From a virus (lineage: Duplodnaviria > Heunggongvirae > Uroviricota > Caudoviricetes), in the IMG/VR virus record IMGVR_UViG_3300042256_000013, positions 64,001-128,000 of that record: DNA of 64,000 nucleotides; one strand, given 5' to 3'. The notes below the pieces were generated by a model that was given only the letters and a program-made list of their open reading frames with translations, had not been told where the DNA came from and did no database searches. Below, one piece after another: positions 3,896-46,169 of the stretch. A program made the position numbers and the translations under genes. Numbering within the stretch: position 1 is the first letter of the stretch; every line of letters starts with the position of its first letter.

Positions 3896-3917
3896 AATAT
3901 GTACCTTAAAAAATTAG

Positions 3918-3990
3918 TACCCCGTGCTGGATTCGAACCAGCGACACTCCCATTAAAAGTGGGATGCTCTACCAACTGAGCTAACGAGGC
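3918..3990 (-). tRNA. tRNA-Lys(TTT)
   Basis: TCCCA-CTTTTAA-TGGGA; CTA instead of CCA. Confidence 0.95.
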
Positions 3991-8780: not shown

Positions 8781-8855
8781 TAGCGGAACCAGCGGGAATC
8801 GAACCCGCCTCTCATCAGTGACAGTGATGTATACTAACCGATATACGATGGCTCC
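8781..8855 (-). tRNA. tRNA-Asp(GTC)
   Basis: CATCA-CTGTCAC-TGATG; ends G-CTA. Confidence 0.93.
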
Positions 8856-9844: not shown

Positions 9845-9899
9845 TAGAATCTATTGTTTTTCATATAATCGAATGAGTAAGAGTTGCTGTTAGATTCTA
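9845..9899 (-). ncRNA. CAGCA-module RNA, stand-alone
   Basis: TAGAATCTA-ACAGCAA...AAACAA-TAGATTCTA. Confidence 0.7.
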
Positions 9900-10929: not shown

Positions 10930-10933
10930 AATC

Positions 10934-10979
10934 AAGAATCTATATATTATTCAACCGTTTTAATTGCTGGAAGATTCTT
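10934..10979 (-). ncRNA. CAGCA-module RNA, stand-alone (minimal)
   Basis: AAGAATCT-TCCAGCAA...ATAT-AGATTCTT. Confidence 0.65.
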
Positions 10980-11980: not shown

Positions 11981-12001
11981 TTTATCTCACATAATAAGGC
12001 T

Positions 12002-12059
12002 GGAATCCATTTTGATTTTCAATTAACAGTTGATTCGCTTATGGTTGCTGCTAGATTCC
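12002..12059 (-). ncRNA. CAGCA-module RNA, stand-alone
   Basis: GGAATCT-AGCAGCAA...AAAAT-GGATTCC. Confidence 0.65.
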
Positions 12060-12327: not shown

Positions 12328-12383
12328 TAGAATCTATTGTTTTTTTCTATATCCGAGAAGTTTTTAATTGCTGTTAGATTCTA
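12328..12383 (-). ncRNA. CAGCA-module RNA, stand-alone
   Basis: TAGAATCTA-ACAGCAA...AAACAA-TAGATTCTA. Confidence 0.7.
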
Positions 12384-12500
12384 AATGAGTACAAATTGAG
12401 TTTAAAGAAGTCTTTTCAAGAGACTAATACGTATTCTATTCTGACCTAATAGGATAACATGCTATCCGTGTCACACCATAGTACGCCTGGTGAATTTGAT
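12384..12500 (-). ncRNA. Candidate multi-hairpin RNA
   Basis: CACCA/TGGTG, GGATAGC/GTTATCC and AGTCT/AGACT hairpins in series. Confidence 0.35.
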
Positions 12501-12507
12501 TAATACT

Positions 12508-12620
12508 GGAATTTATTTCTTTTTGAGGCGGCTGCTCTCCCACTGAGCTACAGTACAAGTACTGGCAGGACTCGAACCTGCGACATGCTGCGTGATAGAA
12601 GTTAGTTGCTGTTAAATTCC
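12508..12620 (-). ncRNA. Circularly permuted tRNA mimic (YrlA/Y-RNA-like)
   Basis: GGAATTT-AACAGCAA...T arm GCAGG-TTCGAGT-CCTGC, loop-closed acceptor CAGTAC-TT-GTACTG, D arm GCTC-AGTGGGA-GAGC, ...AAATTCC. Confidence 0.85.
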
Positions 12621-12638
12621 AAATTTGTTACTACCGCA

Positions 12639-12779
12639 TTAACGTTTAGGTTGGTGCGGGTTATTACGATTCAGGGTTTCGTAACTATGATCGTTGCGAC
12701 GAGACTGATGCGGATTATTGCGATTCAGCGTTTCATAACTATGATCGTTACGTTTAGAGCTATGTGCGTTACCGGACAT
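12639..12779 (-). CDS. 46-aa peptide with tandem 16-aa repeat
   Basis: MSGNAHSSK-RNDHSYETLNRNNPHQ-SR-RNDHSYETLNRNNPHQ-PKR; AAGG RBS; absent from ORF track. Confidence 0.8.
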   Translation of the reverse strand: MSGNAHSSKRNDHSYETLNRNNPHQSRRNDHSYETLNRNNPHQPKR

Positions 12780-12808
12780 ATTATTACCTTTTGTAATTAA
12801 ATTAATAC

Positions 12809-12944
12809 AAGAATTCATCGTTTATTGGATAGCCGTGTCTACCTATTTCACCATCACTATTCGTACTGACATAGATCGTAGGACTCGAACCTACACGCCA
12901 TAAGGCCGCTATTTGGGTTAACATTTAGTTGCTGTTGAATTCTT
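12809..12944 (-). ncRNA. Circularly permuted class-II tRNA mimic (YrlA-like)
   Basis: AAGAATTCA-ACAGCAA...ATAGC, variable arm GCC-TTAT-GGC, T arm GTAGG-TTCGAGT-CCTAC, D arm GTGAAATAGGTAGACAC, GCTAT...TGAATTCTT. Confidence 0.8.
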
Positions 12945-14105: not shown

Positions 14106-14123
14106 TATCTCTCAATTAATACT

Positions 14124-14179
14124 GGAATCCACAAGGTCAAAGTAAAAGTTTGATTTTTGTGTGGTTGCTGGAGGATTCC
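14124..14179 (-). ncRNA. CAGCA-module RNA, stand-alone, 5' of acb2
   Basis: GGAATCC-TCCAGCAA...TTGT-GGATTCC. Confidence 0.65.
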
Positions 14180-15026: not shown

Positions 15027-15085
15027 TAGAATCTATATCTTTGTTTTCACCAATTGAATAAGAGTATAGTTGCTGTTAGATTCTA
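15027..15085 (-). ncRNA. CAGCA-module RNA, stand-alone
   Basis: TAGAATCTA-ACAGCAA...TAGATTCTA. Confidence 0.7.
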
Positions 15086-15087
15086 TG

Positions 15088-15207
15088 CGACGAGTGGTGG
15101 ATTCGAACCACCGACCTGGCCATTAAAAGTGGATGAAGTATAGTTGCTGCAAAATTACATACTGTAATTTGGGGGTTCTACCTGCTCTACCACTGAGCTA
15201 ACTCGTC
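15088..15207 (-). ncRNA. tRNA-Lys(TTT)-like RNA with ~48-nt CAGCA-module insert in anticodon stem
   Basis: GACGAGT/ACTCGTC acceptor, D and T arms; GG-[insert with AAATTAC/GTAATTT-TGCAGCAA]-CCA-CTTTTAA-TGGCC. Confidence 0.85.
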
Positions 15208-15307: not shown

Positions 15308-15337
15308 AAAAAAGTACTTCTCAGTACTTTGTATACT

Positions 15338-15491
15338 GGATTCTCATTAATTGAGCAACTATCTAGCACGGCTCAATATAACTAATTACTATCTCCCTAG
15401 TCACCAGGTGGATACGAAGGGAGTTTTACTTCCGAGTATCCAATCTCATTTATGATTGATTTTAAGATTTTATTGTTTGCTGTCAGAATCC
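15338..15491 (-). ncRNA. CAGCA-module RNA with large non-tRNA cargo
   Basis: GGATTCT-GACAGCAA...AGAATCC enclosing GGATAC/GTATCC and TTGAGC/GCTCAA helices. Confidence 0.65.
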
Positions 15492-15529
15492 GGTGCTAAT
15501 TCGGTATTAATTCGGTATTAATTAAAAAC

Positions 15530-15633
15530 AAGAATCGTTGTTTTCTATCCCTACAGCCAGTAGTTAATCGGAATCGAACCGAAGGTGTTTTTCGCCAATG
15601 AAATATAAGATTTATGTTTGCTGGACGATTCTT
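15530..15633 (-). ncRNA. Permuted, reduced tRNA mimic (YrlA-like)
   Basis: AAGAATCGT-CCAGCAA...TCGG-TTCGATT-CCGA...AAAACA-ACGATTCTT. Confidence 0.75.
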
Positions 15634-15870: not shown

Positions 15871-15895
15871 TTTAATATCCTTTATTGAAGGAACT

Positions 15896-16011
15896 GAAAT
15901 CTTTGTTTTTCTAGCCCCATGCACAGCCTACATAGCAACTTGGCTGTTGCGGATTCGAACCGCATCGTTTTTTCGCATAAAAAATAATTGTTTTGTTTGC
16001 TGTAAGATTTC
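15896..16011 (-). ncRNA. Permuted tRNA mimic (YrlA-like)
   Basis: GAAATCTT-ACAGCAA...GCGG-TTCGAAT-CCGC, ACAGCC/GGCTGT, ...AAGATTTC. Confidence 0.75.
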
Positions 16012-16078: not shown

Positions 16079-16200
16079 GGAATCTGTTTTTATCCAGCAC
16101 CAAGCTCCCACTATTTTAATAAGGCAGATGTTCGTGGGTGGGGATTCGAACCCCGTCGTCTTGTTTTCATCAAAAGGTTTAATTTTTGCTGTAAGATTCC
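16079..16200 (-). ncRNA. Permuted tRNA mimic (YrlA-like)
   Basis: GGAATCT-TACAGCAA...GGGG-TTCGAAT-CCCC, CCCAC/GTGGG, AGCTTGGTGCT, ...AGATTCC. Confidence 0.78.
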
Positions 16201-23125: not shown

Positions 23126-23242
23126 CGGTGAGTGCAGGAATCGAACCTACGACGACGGCGTGACAGGCAATAAGTGTATGCTGTTAGATTCAGTACTGGA
23201 ATCCATTTTATAAACGCTATTTTACCACTAAACTAACTCACC
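23126..23242 (-). ncRNA. tRNA-Asp(GTC)-like RNA with ~46-nt CAGCA-module insert
   Basis: GGTGAGT/ACTCACC acceptor; GCG-[..GGATTC-CAGTACT-GAATCT-AACAGCA..]-GC-CTGTCAC-GCCGT; T arm GTAGG-TTCGATT-CCTGC. Confidence 0.85.
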
Positions 23243-24653: not shown

Positions 24654-24775
24654 TGCAGGGGGATGGAATCGAACCACCGACACGGAGTTTTACTTAGAAG
24701 AAGATAAATGCTGTTAGAATCTTAGTACTAGATTCAATGATTTCTCTCCTGCTCTACCAACTGAGCTACCCCTGC
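24654..24775 (-). ncRNA. tRNA-like RNA (Phe-like body) with CAGCA-module insert
   Basis: GCAGGGG/CCCCTGC, GCTC-AGTTGGTA-GAGC, GGAG..GAATCT-AGTACTA-AGATTC-TAACAGCA..CTCC, GGTGG-TTCGATT-CCATC; anticodon not callable. Confidence 0.82.
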
Positions 24776-25101: not shown

Positions 25102-25213
25102 TGGAGAGGGCTGGATTCGAACCAGCGTTACGTTCTATGAATGAAATTTATGGATGCCGTAAGATTCCATCTGGAATCGCTTTTCGTGTCCTGGGCCGCT
25201 AGACGACCTCTCC
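25102..25213 (-). ncRNA. tRNA-like RNA (Glu-type D arm) with CGGCA-module insert
   Basis: GGAGAGG/CCTCTCC, GTC-TAGCGGCCCAG-GAC, GATTCC-AGAT-GGAATC-TTACGGCA, GCTGG-TTCGAAT-CCAGC. Confidence 0.82.
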
Positions 25214-32036: not shown

Positions 32037-32112
32037 TAGTGGCTCATACCAGATTCGAACTGGTGTGGACAGAGATTTAGAGTCTCCCGCTACGCCTCTC
32101 AGCTAATGAGCC
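32037..32112 (-). tRNA. Amber suppressor tRNA(CTA)
   Basis: GGCTCAT/ATGAGCC-A, GGAGA-CTCTAAA-TCTCT, ACCAG-TTCGAAT-CTGGT. Confidence 0.9.
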
Positions 32113-46010: not shown

Positions 46011-46034
46011 AAAAAACCAGCAAGAAGCTGGTTT
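46011..46034 (-). terminator. Terminator
   Basis: AAACCAGC-TTCTT-GCTGGTTTTTT. Confidence 0.78.
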
Positions 46035-46041
46035 AATTAAT

Positions 46042-46164
46042 TAGTTGGGAATCAAGGAATCGAACCTTATCTCACGGCTCCCTATGCAATTGTATTGGTT
46101 GCTGTGAAATTCCTGTTGCAAGAATTTATGTTATAACGTTGTGCTGCCATTACACCAATTCCCG
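46042..46164 (-). ncRNA. tRNA-like RNA with CAGCA-module insert
   Basis: CGGGAAT/ATTCCCA (C-A at 1-72), GTG-TAATGGCAG-CAC, AAATTCTTG/CAGGAATTT-CACAGCAA, TAAGG-TTCGATT-CCTTG. Confidence 0.8.
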
Positions 46165-46169
46165 ATAAG

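What the first reader, a model, noticed from the sequence alone, without database searches (positions are those of the whole stretch)
12508..12944. Two complete circularly permuted tRNA mimics (T arm - loop-closed acceptor - D arm)
Seen: in 12508-12620 the order is module 5' strand, T arm, acceptor stem closed by a loop (CAGTAC-TT-GTACTG), D arm, module 3' strand. 12809-12944 has the same order with a Leu/Ser-type variable arm (GCC-TTAT-GGC) and an ATAGC/GCTAT pseudo-anticodon stem. Established: this topology matches YrlA Y RNAs. Inference: a class-II YrlA carrying a variable arm is unusual. The terminal stem does not obviously match the GNCGAAN(0-1)G Rsr motif I recall.
Basis: partly seen in the sequence, partly recalled or inferred. 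Interest (0 to 1): 0.8.

Follow-up and report, generated by a model that had tools for sequence, protein, structure and literature searches.

The report
Phage tRNA-shaped Y-like RNAs, new handle
These two small RNA genes of a giant phage fold like tRNAs with a sealed acceptor end and carry a conserved "handle" that, across hundreds of phages, travels with a Ro60-shaped protein, so they are most likely the tRNA-mimicking partner RNAs of an unpublished phage version of the Ro60/Y-RNA particle.

Summary
On the minus strand, 12507-12620 and 12810-12943 each read: 8-bp terminal helix, ACAGCAA, anticodon-stem 3' strand, variable region, T arm, loop-closed acceptor hairpin, D arm, anticodon-stem 5' strand, A-rich linker, terminal helix. 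Both are conserved in nine related jumbo phages with compensatory changes.

They are not Rfam YrlA. Only the tRNA-like core of element 1 matches (43 of 69 bits). The GNCGAAN0-1G motif is absent, and the phage has no TROVE gene.

The terminal helix plus ACAGCAA is a portable "handle". It occurs about 20 times in this tRNA island, and in many unrelated phages (58 model matches; 27 of 28 pairs covary).

The handle co-occurs with a DUF2828/DUF7788 (vWA) protein. This phage encodes one between an RNA ligase and a 2H phosphoesterase. Its predicted fold matches Ro60 over its full length. In nine other named phages the handle RNAs lie within about 500 nt of that gene, on the same strand.

Best reading: functional analogues of YrlA for a divergent Ro60 paralogue. 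Binding is inferred, not shown. This scan noted the DUF2828-ACAGCAA link before on other DNA, in at least 188 genomes. I found no publication of the RNA family.

The parts
12507..12620 (-). Element 1: handle-framed, circularly permuted tRNA mimic (class-I-like body), 114 nt including the first tail nucleotide
   Evidence: Rfam YrlA core match. Own model R1 scores 133 bits. Homologues in 9 phage sequences with covariation.
12613..12620 (-). Element 1 closing helix, 5' strand (GGAAUUUA)
   Evidence: Pairs with 12508-12515. Position 7 covaries as U-A / C-G / U-G among relatives.
12606..12612 (-). Element 1 ACAGCAA motif, unpaired, directly 3' of the helix strand
   Evidence: CAGCAA is invariant in all 9 homologues and the full ACAGCAA is kept in 8 (CBB reads CCAGCAA). 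It is the family signature in unrelated phages.
12565..12581 (-). Element 1 T arm (GCAGG-UUCGAGU-CCUGC)
12551..12564 (-). Element 1 loop-closed acceptor hairpin (CAGUAC-UU-GUACUG)
   Evidence: Always closed in relatives, with loops UA, UUAAUU, UUCG, AUCG or a 40-nt insert. No discriminator or CCA.
12534..12548 (-). Element 1 D arm (GCUC-AGUGGGA-GAGC), preceded by U8 A9
   Evidence: G18 G19 and A14 are retained.
12508..12515 (-). Element 1 closing helix, 3' strand (UAAAUUCC), followed by AGUA
12810..12943 (-). Element 2: handle-framed permuted tRNA mimic with a class-II-like body (variable arm, 3-bp D stem), 134 nt
   Evidence: R1 scores 30.6 bits, E 3e-5. 7-sequence alignment is 97.1% paired with 6 compensatory pairs.
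12929..12935 (-). Element 2 ACAGCAA motif, after helix strand AGAAUUCA (12936-12943)
12895..12907 (-). Element 2 variable arm (G-GCC-UUAU-GGC-GU)
   Evidence: The first pair covaries G-C / A-U.
12878..12894 (-). Element 2 T arm (GUAGG-UUCGAGU-CCUAC)
12856..12875 (-). Element 2 closed acceptor hairpin (CUAU-GUCAGUACGA-AUAG here; UGUACU-UUCG-AGUACA in the pEa12/BF/Yen9-04 lineage)
12835..12851 (-). Element 2 D arm (GUG-AAAUAGGUAGA-CAC), preceded by U8 G9
   Evidence: Invariant across 7 homologues.
12810..12817 (-). Element 2 closing helix, 3' strand (UGAAUUCU), followed by UGUA
   Evidence: Three of eight helix pairs covary.
12328..12381 (-). Nearest 'empty' handle RNA (about 54 nt; helix + ACAGCAA + variable loop), a YrlB-like minimal member of the same family
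   Evidence: Weak match to Rfam Dictyostelium Class I RNA.
15895..16011 (-). Further permuted member with T arm and closed acceptor but a degenerate D arm
15088..15207 (-). Inverse permutation: tRNA-Lys(UUU) body with normal ends and the handle, closed by a loop, inserted in the anticodon stem
   Evidence: Rfam tRNA 47 bits with a large insert. Sequence read. Annotated tRNA-Lys in XbC2.

Best explanation
Elements 1 and 2 are genes for small non-coding RNAs. Each joins two modules.

Module (i) is a 'handle': an 8-bp helix that brings the RNA's 5' and 3' ends together, followed on the 5' strand by unpaired ACAGCAA and preceded on the 3' strand by an A-rich linker.

Module (ii) is a tRNA-shaped domain attached through its anticodon stem. 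Its acceptor stem is sealed by a loop, so it cannot be charged.

The handle is most likely the binding site of the phage's Ro60-fold protein (Pfam DUF2828 + DUF7788/vWA; genome 285,882-287,396, minus strand). That gene lies between an RNA ligase and a 2H phosphoesterase. The tRNA-shaped domain would be displayed as a tether or decoy for a tRNA-recognising enzyme. The particle would then work like Ro60 with YrlA: an RNA-guided platform for RNA repair, RNA surveillance or counter-defence during infection.

Shown: the RNA architecture and its conservation; the spread of the handle family; its co-occurrence and synteny with the DUF2828 gene.

Predicted: the Ro60-like fold of that protein.

Inferred: that the protein binds the handle, what the tRNA domain recruits, and the biological role.
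For: Structure and conservation:
- Core T arm / closed acceptor / D arm matches the YrlA model (43.3 bits, E 3e-8).
- tRNA tertiary-contact nucleotides are retained: U8, A14, G18 G19, UUCGA T loop, C48.
- There are compensatory changes in the closing helix, anticodon stem, T stem, variable arm and acceptor hairpin.

The handle is a portable unit. The same helix+ACAGCAA frames about 55-nt 'empty' RNAs, non-tRNA cargo, other permuted mimics, and (closed by a loop) sits inside tRNA bodies.

The family is broad. Model R1 finds 58 matches in 100 unrelated viral loci: 93.9% paired against about 41% slid, and 27 of 28 pairs have changes on both sides.

Protein partner by association:
- A DUF2828/DUF7788 gene lies in 17 of 37 RNA-bearing loci, on the same strand and mostly within about 2.5 kb.
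- It lies elsewhere on the contig in 12 of the 18 other records that could be searched, including 4 of 4 that are at least 90% complete.
- Handle RNAs lie within about 500 nt of the gene in all 9 named phages tested: two Felixounavirus (finno, Bas63), Mycobacterium phage Rumpelstiltskin, Listeria List-36, Campylobacter PC14, Vibrio ValKK3, Staphylococcus S-CoN_Ph12, Enterococcus A2 and Lak-B5.
- In Rumpelstiltskin the array is empty / tRNA mimic / empty. The mimic lies 103 nt downstream of the annotated Ro-like gene (R1 39.7 bits), with no Rfam YrlA hit.

This phage has the gene, flanked by an RNA ligase and a 2H-SAK phosphoesterase. Its AF2 model (pLDDT 79, pTM 0.75) has Ro60/TROVE structures as its 13 best PDB matches over the full length (E 1e-9 to 2e-5, TM 0.37-0.57). 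The vWA MIDAS DxSxS motif is invariant.

Literature:
- Bas63 gp130, which is bas63_0130 and 39% identical to this protein, is Ro60-like and counters the Ppl defence (preprint 10.1101/2024.10.10.617714).
- Thermus phage Ro60 binds phage Y-like RNAs and host PNPase (PMC12135203).
Against: - No binding data exist. The protein-RNA link rests on co-occurrence and analogy.
- In this genome and its close relatives the RNAs lie in the tRNA island, about 209 kb from the protein gene, so the local synteny seen elsewhere is missing here.
- 'Empty' handles often sit 20-35 nt upstream of ORFs or tRNAs. That would also fit a cis-acting leader or processing role.
- Expression and the RNA ends are not established.
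- The alignment of distant members was fitted to the model, which inflates pairing statistics somewhat.
- The fold is a prediction from a 12-sequence alignment.
Confidence: 0.65

Rival explanations
1. They are genuine YrlA RNAs that work with a host-encoded Rsr (TROVE Ro60). The phage supplies only the RNA.
For: The tRNA-like core of element 1 matches Rfam YrlA at E 3e-8. Some enterobacteria carry rsr-yrlBA-rtcBA operons (PMC4201824, PMC7790460).
Against: - The score is below the gathering cut-off, and only model positions 24-84 align.
- No GNCGAAN0-1G lies in or around either element, whereas the YrlA consensus starts acGGCGAAUGC.
- Element 2 has no YrlA hit.
- The same handle accompanies DUF2828, not TROVE, in unrelated phages.
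- The host is unknown.
Confidence: 0.05
2. They are circularly permuted tRNA genes. The ends in the handle are joined (for example by the phage Rnl1/Rnl2-type ligases) and RNase P/Z then opens the acceptor. The product is the same RNA as the 'closed' genes, that is a tRNA body carrying the handle at the anticodon position.
For: - The window holds both permutations of one architecture.
- In other phages 6 of about 45 permuted members have a 7-bp acceptor followed by N73-CCA and a 1-20 nt linker, where 0.7 is expected by chance (P = 7e-5).
- The phage encodes Rnl1- and Rnl2-type ligases.
- M. smegmatis YrlA is cut by RNase P and receives CCA (PMC4201824).
Against: - Elements 1 and 2 have 5-6 bp and 4-5 bp acceptor hairpins, with no discriminator or CCA. 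In relatives the hairpins are capped by stable UUCG-type loops.
- No splicing endonuclease or RtcB gene was found.
- No anticodon loop would be formed.
- This is a statement about maturation and does not exclude the Ro-like partner.
Confidence: 0.1
3. The handle is a cis-acting transcript element (a processing site, a 5' stabiliser or a translation-control hairpin of the early polycistronic RNAs). The tRNA-like inserts are decaying by-products of tRNA gene rearrangement.
For: - Empty handles lie just upstream of ORFs and tRNAs.
- Few sigma70 promoters are predicted in this region of the relative CBB, so transcripts are long and need processing (PMC5259590).
- In Vibrio phage ValKK3 a handle overlaps the start codon of the Ro-like gene itself.
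Against: - The tRNA-like bodies are under clear purifying selection with compensatory changes across two phage genera and in unrelated phages. Decay products would not be.
- This reading does not explain the tight genomic coupling to one protein family.
- A cis role for empty handles is compatible with the protein binding them.
Confidence: 0.1
4. They are stand-alone decoys or sponges for a host tRNA-directed defence nuclease or a tRNA-modifying sensor, acting without the Ro-like protein.
For: Phage tRNA islands are linked to evasion of tRNA-targeting defences (general knowledge). The sealed acceptor gives resistance to exonucleases.
Against: The anticodon loop, the usual target of such nucleases, is exactly what is missing. 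This reading does not explain the conserved handle or its coupling to DUF2828.
Confidence: 0.08

Closest known systems
YrlA-type bacterial and phage Y RNAs with Ro60/Rsr (Rfam RF02553; Chen et al. 2014, PMC4201824)
   Same: - Terminal helix joining the 5' and 3' ends, with a conserved protein-binding motif at the helix/loop junction on the 5' strand.
- tRNA-like domain in the order T arm, loop-closed acceptor-like stem, D arm, with an optional V arm.
- Partner protein with a Ro60 ring + vWA fold.
- Smaller sister RNAs that have the handle only (compare YrlB).
- RNA-repair gene neighbours (a ligase).
   Different: - The handle motif is ACAGCAA, not GNCGAAN0-1G.
- The protein is DUF2828/DUF7788, which Pfam TROVE does not detect.
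- The Rfam score is below the cut-off.
- There are about 20 copies per genome, dispersed in a tRNA island far from the protein gene.
- Both circular permutations exist, including handles inside otherwise canonical tRNAs.
Thermus phage phiLo Ro60 with Yrl1/Yrl2 (PMC12135203; PDB 9KOP, 9L5Y)
   Same: A phage-encoded Ro60-fold protein with adjacent phage-encoded Y-like RNAs. It is the best structural match of the protein model.
   Different: The phiLo RNAs were identified by a CGAA motif and a stem-bulge-stem shape. They have no tRNA mimic and no ACAGCAA. The protein was retrieved there as a recognised Ro60 homologue.
Bas63 gp130 (Felixounavirus), a Ro60-like counter of the Ppl defence (preprint 10.1101/2024.10.10.617714)
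   Same: Same protein family (39% identity over 95% of the length). The gene sits directly upstream of the tRNA cluster. The authors guessed that some 'tRNAs' there might be Y RNAs.
   Different: The RNAs were not identified there. Here a handle RNA and a handle-framed permuted tRNA mimic are located in Bas63, and four handle RNAs including one mimic in its relative finno. None is annotated as an RNA gene.
Dictyostelium Class I RNAs (Rfam RF01414; PMC7919456)
   Same: A short covarying stem joins the ends. A conserved motif containing ACAGCAA lies directly after the 5' strand. The remainder is variable. The 3' end lies just past the stem (CUGU there, WGU here).
   Different: Rfam scores for the phage modules are 13-23 bits against a cut-off of 41.5. 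Class I RNAs are 42-65 nt and have no tRNA domain. Their known binder is an RRM protein. Any evolutionary link is untested here.
Circularly permuted tRNA genes of Cyanidioschyzon merolae (PMC3978253)
   Same: The 3' half lies upstream of the 5' half, and the acceptor strands are joined by a short linker.
   Different: Elements 1 and 2 have no BHB motif, no splicing endonuclease, no discriminator or CCA, and no reconstituted anticodon loop.

Membership tests
YrlA (Rfam RF02553 / Chen et al. 2014) | tRNA-like domain in the order T arm, loop-closed acceptor-like stem, D arm | tested here: met
   alignment (model positions 24-84). Covariation.
YrlA (Rfam RF02553 / Chen et al. 2014) | Reaches the Rfam gathering score (69 bits) over the full model | tested here: not met
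   Element 1 scores 43.3 bits on the core only. Element 2 has no hit at E<=10.
YrlA (Rfam RF02553 / Chen et al. 2014) | GNCGAAN0-1G motif near the 5' end (putative Rsr site) | tested here: not met
   No match in or around either element. The model consensus is shown.
YrlA (Rfam RF02553 / Chen et al. 2014) | Encoded within 4 kb of, and on the same strand as, a TROVE-domain Ro60 orthologue | tested here: not met
   No PF05731 match in the complete genome. The Ro60-fold DUF2828 gene lies about 209 kb away.
YrlA (Rfam RF02553 / Chen et al. 2014) | Bound by Rsr; carries tRNA modifications (T54, pseudouridine 55, D) | not testable with these tools
   Needs immunoprecipitation and modification mapping.
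ACAGCAA-handle RNAs that accompany DUF2828 (no published definition; as delimited here) | Covarying 6-9 bp helix joining the two ends of the RNA | tested here: met
   Family-wide, helix 1 has 8 of 8 pairs with changes on both sides.
ACAGCAA-handle RNAs that accompany DUF2828 (no published definition; as delimited here) | Unpaired ACAGCAA 0-3 nt after the 5' strand, and an A-rich linker before the 3' strand | tested here: met
ACAGCAA-handle RNAs that accompany DUF2828 (no published definition; as delimited here) | The genome encodes a DUF2828/DUF7788 protein with a Ro60-like fold | tested here: met
ACAGCAA-handle RNAs that accompany DUF2828 (no published definition; as delimited here) | RNA genes adjacent to the protein gene on the same strand | tested here: not met
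   Not adjacent in this genome, and no handle lies upstream of the gene. Adjacent in 17 viral loci and 9 named phages.
ACAGCAA-handle RNAs that accompany DUF2828 (no published definition; as delimited here) | Direct binding of the handle by the protein | not testable with these tools
   The complex tool takes proteins only.
Circularly permuted tRNA genes (C. merolae type) | 3' half upstream of the 5' half in one transcript | tested here: met
Circularly permuted tRNA genes (C. merolae type) | 7-bp acceptor with discriminator and a processable linker; BHB motif at the termini; splicing endonuclease present | tested here: not met
   The acceptor is 5-6 bp with a 2-4 nt loop (element 1) or 4-5 bp with a 10-nt loop (element 2). 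No PF01974 match. No BHB could be drawn (reading).
Dictyostelium Class I RNA (RF01414) | Reaches the Rfam gathering score (41.5 bits); 42-65 nt | tested here: not met
   The best module hits score 22.7, 20.4, 14.5 and 13.2 bits. Elements 1 and 2 are 114 and 134 nt.

The most novel reading that the evidence does not exclude
A Ro60-paralogue particle, unpublished as far as I could find, is widespread in phages: the DUF2828 protein occurs in at least 710 sequenced phage genomes. It uses a universal helix+ACAGCAA handle to load interchangeable RNA cargos.

In this jumbo phage the handle is grafted in both circular permutations. It sits on sealed tRNA mimics (the two elements here) and on otherwise functional tRNA-Lys and tRNA-Asp bodies. 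The Ro-like ring, with its neighbouring ligase and 2H phosphoesterase, would thus be brought directly to tRNAs to protect or repair them against host anticodon nucleases.

The shared handle with Dictyostelium Class I RNAs would then point to an ancient, cross-domain RNP.
Probability: 0.35. Interest if true: 0.9.

Novelty: new variant of a known kind. Interest (0 to 1): 0.75.

Why it matters
Ro60/Y-RNA particles are known from animals, about 5% of bacteria and a few phages. What the tRNA-like domain of YrlA does is still open.

These elements indicate a second Y-RNA-like system in phages, with a different protein family and a different RNA handle. The protein family is present in at least 710 sequenced phage genomes.

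The system is modular and multi-copy, and it sits inside tRNA islands. It is present in genetically tractable phages such as Bas63, other Felixounavirus and cluster-L mycobacteriophages. In Bas63 the protein already has a phenotype: it counters the Ppl defence.

That makes the role of tRNA mimicry in Ro-type particles directly testable. It would also explain many unannotated gaps and 'odd tRNAs' in phage tRNA clusters.

Tried and rejected
- **Intron / permuted-intron-exon idea.** The handle inside tRNA-Lys and tRNA-Asp can be removed at positions 28-30 to give perfect anticodon arms. I therefore tested whether elements 1 and 2 could be '3' intron half - exon - 5' intron half'. Applying the same distances gives loops of 5-8 nt with no consistent anticodon. 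In other phages the handle simply replaces the anticodon loop. I dropped this as the general explanation.
- **Promoter reading of empty handles.** The -35/-10 fit is poor, the published sigma70 promoters of the relative CBB are classical and lie elsewhere, and the helix covaries.
- **BHB motif / archaeal-type splicing.** No motif could be drawn and there is no endonuclease gene.
- **Known ribozymes or other Rfam families.** Nothing beyond weak YrlA and Class I hits.
- **Protein families absent from the phage.** TROVE, RtcB and tRNA_int_endo.
- **Sequence search of the protein against PDB chains.** No hit. Only the fold search found Ro60.
- **Expression.** No RNA holder is listed for this phage itself. 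Laying four runs gave contigs only, from a related phage. They carried unspliced module-bearing tRNA and no circle or splice joints. One contig ended in adapter sequence 2 nt past the closing helix of the handle RNA at 15336-15492. This is too weak to use as evidence either way.
- **Energy-based folding.** Not better than shuffles.
- **Literature searches.** Searches for the motif, permuted tRNA-like phage RNAs and DUF2828 found no description of the RNA family. The Burroughs and Aravind 2016 RNA-repair paper could not be opened.
Full report
**Context.** The window is bases 64,001-128,000 of a complete 371,104-bp phage genome with direct terminal repeats. The phage belongs to the RaK2/GAP32/CBB group. 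Its nearest relatives are Xanthomonas phage XbC2 and Erwinia phage Kaldavass, at about 88% identity. The window is a tRNA island: 25 ARAGORN tRNAs and 27 Rfam tRNA hits, all on the minus strand. Both elements must therefore be read on the minus strand.

**Observation.** Read 5' to 3' on the minus strand, element 1 (12620 down to 12507) consists of:
- helix strand GGAAUUUA, then ACAGCAA and a 14-nt linker
- GCAGC, the 3' strand of an anticodon-type stem
- AUGUC, the variable loop
- T arm GCAGG-UUCGAGU-CCUGC
- a hairpin CAGUAC-UU-GUACUG where the acceptor stem should be open
- UA, D arm GCUC-AGUGGGA-GAGC, then A
- GCCGC, the 5' strand of the anticodon-type stem
- a 12-nt A-rich linker, helix strand UAAAUUCC, then AGUA

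Element 2 (12943 down to 12810) has the same order, with:
- stem AUAGC/GCUAU
- a 13-nt variable arm (GCC-UUAU-GGC)
- T arm GUAGG-UUCGAGU-CCUAC
- a short closed acceptor hairpin
- U8 G9 and a class-II-type D arm (GUG, 11-nt loop with GG, CAC)
- helix AGAAUUCA/UGAAUUCU

Rfam's YrlA model aligns the T arm / closed stem / D arm core of element 1 at 43.3 bits (E 3e-8). Only model positions 24-84 align, and the score is below the 69-bit cut-off. Element 2 gives no YrlA hit. Thermodynamic folding alone is not better than shuffled controls.

**Conservation.** Both elements lie unannotated in XbC2, Kaldavass, GAP32 (two copies of element 1), CBB, Yersinia phages fHe-Yen9-03/04, Erwinia pEa_SNUABM_12 and Serratia BF.
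- Element 1: nine sequences, 95.9% of cells paired against 18-45% in slid controls. Five pairs have changes on both sides, in the closing helix, anticodon stem and T stem.
- Element 2: seven sequences, 97.1% against 33-39%. Six pairs are compensatory, including the variable arm and the acceptor hairpin.
- The acceptor is closed in every homologue, by UA, UUAAUU, UUCG, AUCG or a 40-nt insert. The sealed end is therefore a selected feature, not an accident of two abutting tRNA halves.

**The handle.** The helix plus ACAGCAA recurs on the minus strand of this tRNA island only (11 pattern hits against 0.8 expected; genome-wide check). It frames several kinds of RNA:
- about 55-nt 'empty' RNAs: 9845-9898, 10930-10977, about 12000-12058, 12328-12381, about 14116-14178, 15027-15084
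- a 150-nt non-tRNA cargo (about 15336-15492)
- further permuted mimics with degenerate arms (about 15530-15633, 15895-16011, 16079-16200)
- the inverse permutation, where the handle is closed by a loop and sits in the anticodon region of RNAs with ordinary tRNA ends (15088-15207, 23126-23242, 24654-24775, 25102-25213, about 46027-46165)

The helix covaries between copies (GAAUCUA/UAGAUUC, GGAAUUUA/UAAAUUCC, AGAAUUCA/UGAAUUCU, GGAAUCC/GGAUUCC). It is a real pairing and not a protein-binding palindrome.

**Spread beyond this phage group.** A pattern scan of viral contigs (ACAGCAA-type motif followed within 10-40 nt by a T arm) returned 118 loci. A covariance model built from the element 1 alignment (R1) found 58 matches at E<0.01 in 100 of these loci. 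About 45 are full-length permuted mimics with quite different helix sequences. On that alignment 93.9% of cells pair against about 41% in slid controls. 27 of 28 pairs show changes on both sides, and all eight pairs of the terminal helix covary. The alignment is fitted to the model, which favours pairing, but the margin is large.

In six of about 45 members the acceptor has 7 bp and is followed by N73-CCA and a short linker (P = 7e-5 by chance). Some members could therefore be opened by RNase P, as M. smegmatis YrlA is (PMC4201824). Elements 1 and 2 lack these features.

**The protein partner.** I clustered all ORFs of the RNA-bearing loci. One family stood out, proteins of 470-580 aa in 16 of 35 loci. 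They are Pfam DUF2828 + DUF7788 with a weak vWA signal, and none matched TROVE.
- A profile search found the family in 17 of 37 loci with an R1 hit. It lies on the same strand, usually with the RNAs directly downstream or upstream.
- Of the 18 remaining records that could be searched whole, 12 carry the gene elsewhere. That includes all four that are at least 90% complete. The six without it are fragments, 5-54% complete.
- This phage has the gene at 285,882-287,396, minus strand, 504 aa. It lies between an RNA ligase (PHA02142 OB fold + RNA_ligase) and a 2H-SAK phosphoesterase. That is a typical RNA-repair neighbourhood (PMC7824862).
- The AlphaFold2 model (12-sequence alignment, pLDDT 79, pTM 0.75) has Ro60/TROVE structures as its 13 best PDB matches, over the whole length. 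They include Thermus phage phiLo Ro60, Xenopus and human Ro60, and Deinococcus Rsr (E 1e-9 to 2e-5, TM 0.37-0.57). Only vWA domains follow.
- The MIDAS DxSxS motif is invariant. A plain sequence search of PDB finds nothing.

**Reverse test.** tblastn finds the protein in 710 phage records. I inspected nine phages from very different lineages. All have handle RNAs within about 500 nt of the gene on the same strand:
- Felixounavirus finno: three empty handles and one permuted tRNA mimic. Bas63 also has a handle RNA and the same mimic.
- Mycobacterium phage Rumpelstiltskin: empty / tRNA mimic / empty, starting 50 nt after the annotated 'Ro-like RNA-binding protein'. R1 scores 39.7 bits, E 4e-8, and there is no Rfam YrlA hit.
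- Listeria List-36: three handles, beside RtcB and RNA ligase genes.
- Campylobacter PC14: two.
- Vibrio ValKK3: one, overlapping the gene's start codon.
- Staphylococcus S-CoN_Ph12: three.
- Enterococcus A2: three, one of them a 66.9-bit tRNA mimic.
- Lak-B5: one.

The arrangement of one tRNA-like RNA plus handle-only RNAs next to a Ro-fold gene mirrors rsr-yrlB-yrlA.

**Interpretation.** Elements 1 and 2 work like YrlA but are not YrlA. The defining YrlA features other than the tRNA-like core were tested and not met: the gathering score, the GNCGAAN0-1G motif, and a TROVE neighbour.

ACAGCAA occupies the same place as the Rsr motif in YrlA, the junction of the terminal helix and the internal loop on the 5' strand. 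I therefore infer that the handle binds the DUF2828 ring and that the tRNA-shaped domain is presented to a second factor.

The function is inferred from three lines:
- the ligase and 2H phosphoesterase neighbours
- the Thermus phage Ro60/Yrl/PNPase complex (PMC12135203)
- Bas63 gp130, the same family at 39% identity (bas63_0130), which counters the Ppl defence; its authors guessed that unidentified Y RNAs hide among the tRNA genes (preprint 10.1101/2024.10.10.617714)

Binding, expression, RNA ends and the partner of the tRNA domain remain untested.

**Other comparisons.** The empty handles resemble Dictyostelium Class I RNAs: a short stem joining the ends, a conserved motif containing ACAGCAA right after the 5' strand, and a 3' end just past the stem (PMC7919456). 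Four of the six best genome-wide hits of that Rfam model are handle RNAs. All are far below the cut-off, at 13-23 bits against 41.5. This is a resemblance, not membership.

Lak megaphage 'enigmatic tRNA introns' (PMC6784885) may be related, since Lak-B5 carries both the protein and a handle. I did not test their introns.

**Relation to earlier notes of this scan.** Notes on this window had already listed the module family and the module-interrupted tRNAs. I reached the DUF2828/Ro60 link independently. A later word search showed the scan had recorded the same DUF2828-ACAGCAA pairing on other DNA, in at least 188 genomes, again with no publication found. That repetition is not independent evidence. 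The checks cited above are my own.

**Verdict.** The YrlA reading is right in topology and probably in function, but wrong in family. The elements are tRNA-mimic members of an unpublished handle-RNA family that partners a divergent Ro60-fold protein. I rate this a new variant of a known kind. It is of high interest because the system is widespread, modular and testable in model phages.

Noticed in passing
window 12639-12779 (-): A 46-codon ORF lies between the two elements. It encodes a peptide with an internal tandem repeat (two copies of an ...NDHSYETLNRNNPHQ... unit). A CDS is annotated at the same place in XbC2 and Kaldavass.
   Followed up: no
window 12382-12506 (-): Directly downstream of element 1 lies a conserved, unannotated stretch with two hairpins (CACCAGGCGUACUAUGGUG and GGAUAGCAUGUUAUCC). 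It is also present after the element in XbC2, Kaldavass and Yen9-04. It may be another small RNA or a 3' extension.
   Followed up: partly
window 15088-15207 and 23126-23242 (-): tRNA-Lys(UUU) and tRNA-Asp(GUC) bodies are interrupted at positions 28-30 of the anticodon stem by a 46-48 nt loop-closed handle. Removing it gives perfect anticodon arms. Intact copies of both tRNAs exist elsewhere in the window (3917-3990, 8783-8855).
   Followed up: partly
window about 46027-46165 (-): A handle-bearing tRNA body missed by ARAGORN and Rfam. It has a C1.A72 mismatch, as bacterial initiator tRNAs do. After removal of the insert its loop reads AUAGGGA.
   Followed up: partly
window 32039-32112 (-): A tRNA with anticodon CUA, which ARAGORN labels Pyl. 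It is an amber-suppressor-type tRNA in the island.
   Followed up: no
L146:4964-5006 (Vibrio phage ValKK3): A minimal handle (AGACAU...ACAGCAA...AUGUC) overlaps the ribosome-binding site and start codon of the DUF2828 gene itself. This suggests autoregulation by the protein.
   Followed up: no
Loci L049, L060, L069, L075, L090, L106 (viral contigs): Permuted handle-framed tRNA bodies whose 7-bp acceptor is followed by N73-CCA and a 1-20 nt linker. These are candidate true permuted tRNA genes that RNase P/Z could open.
   Followed up: partly
window 15336 (runs X24/X37): Contigs of a related phage, from what looks like an RNA library, end in Illumina adapter sequence. One junction lies 2 nt past the closing helix of the handle RNA at 15336-15492, which may mark a 3' end.
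   Followed up: no
L144 (Listeria phage List-36) 4662-4926 and 5001-11506: Three handle RNAs lie upstream of the DUF2828 gene. They are in one block with a phosphohydrolase, an RtcB-type 'tRNA splicing ligase' and a second RNA ligase, an RNA-repair cassette.
   Followed up: no
L150:4921-5045 (Escherichia phage Bas63): The handle-framed tRNA mimic overlaps a 'hypothetical protein' CDS annotated on the opposite strand (bas63_0137; bas63_0138 lies just downstream). That CDS is probably a mis-annotation.
   Followed up: no
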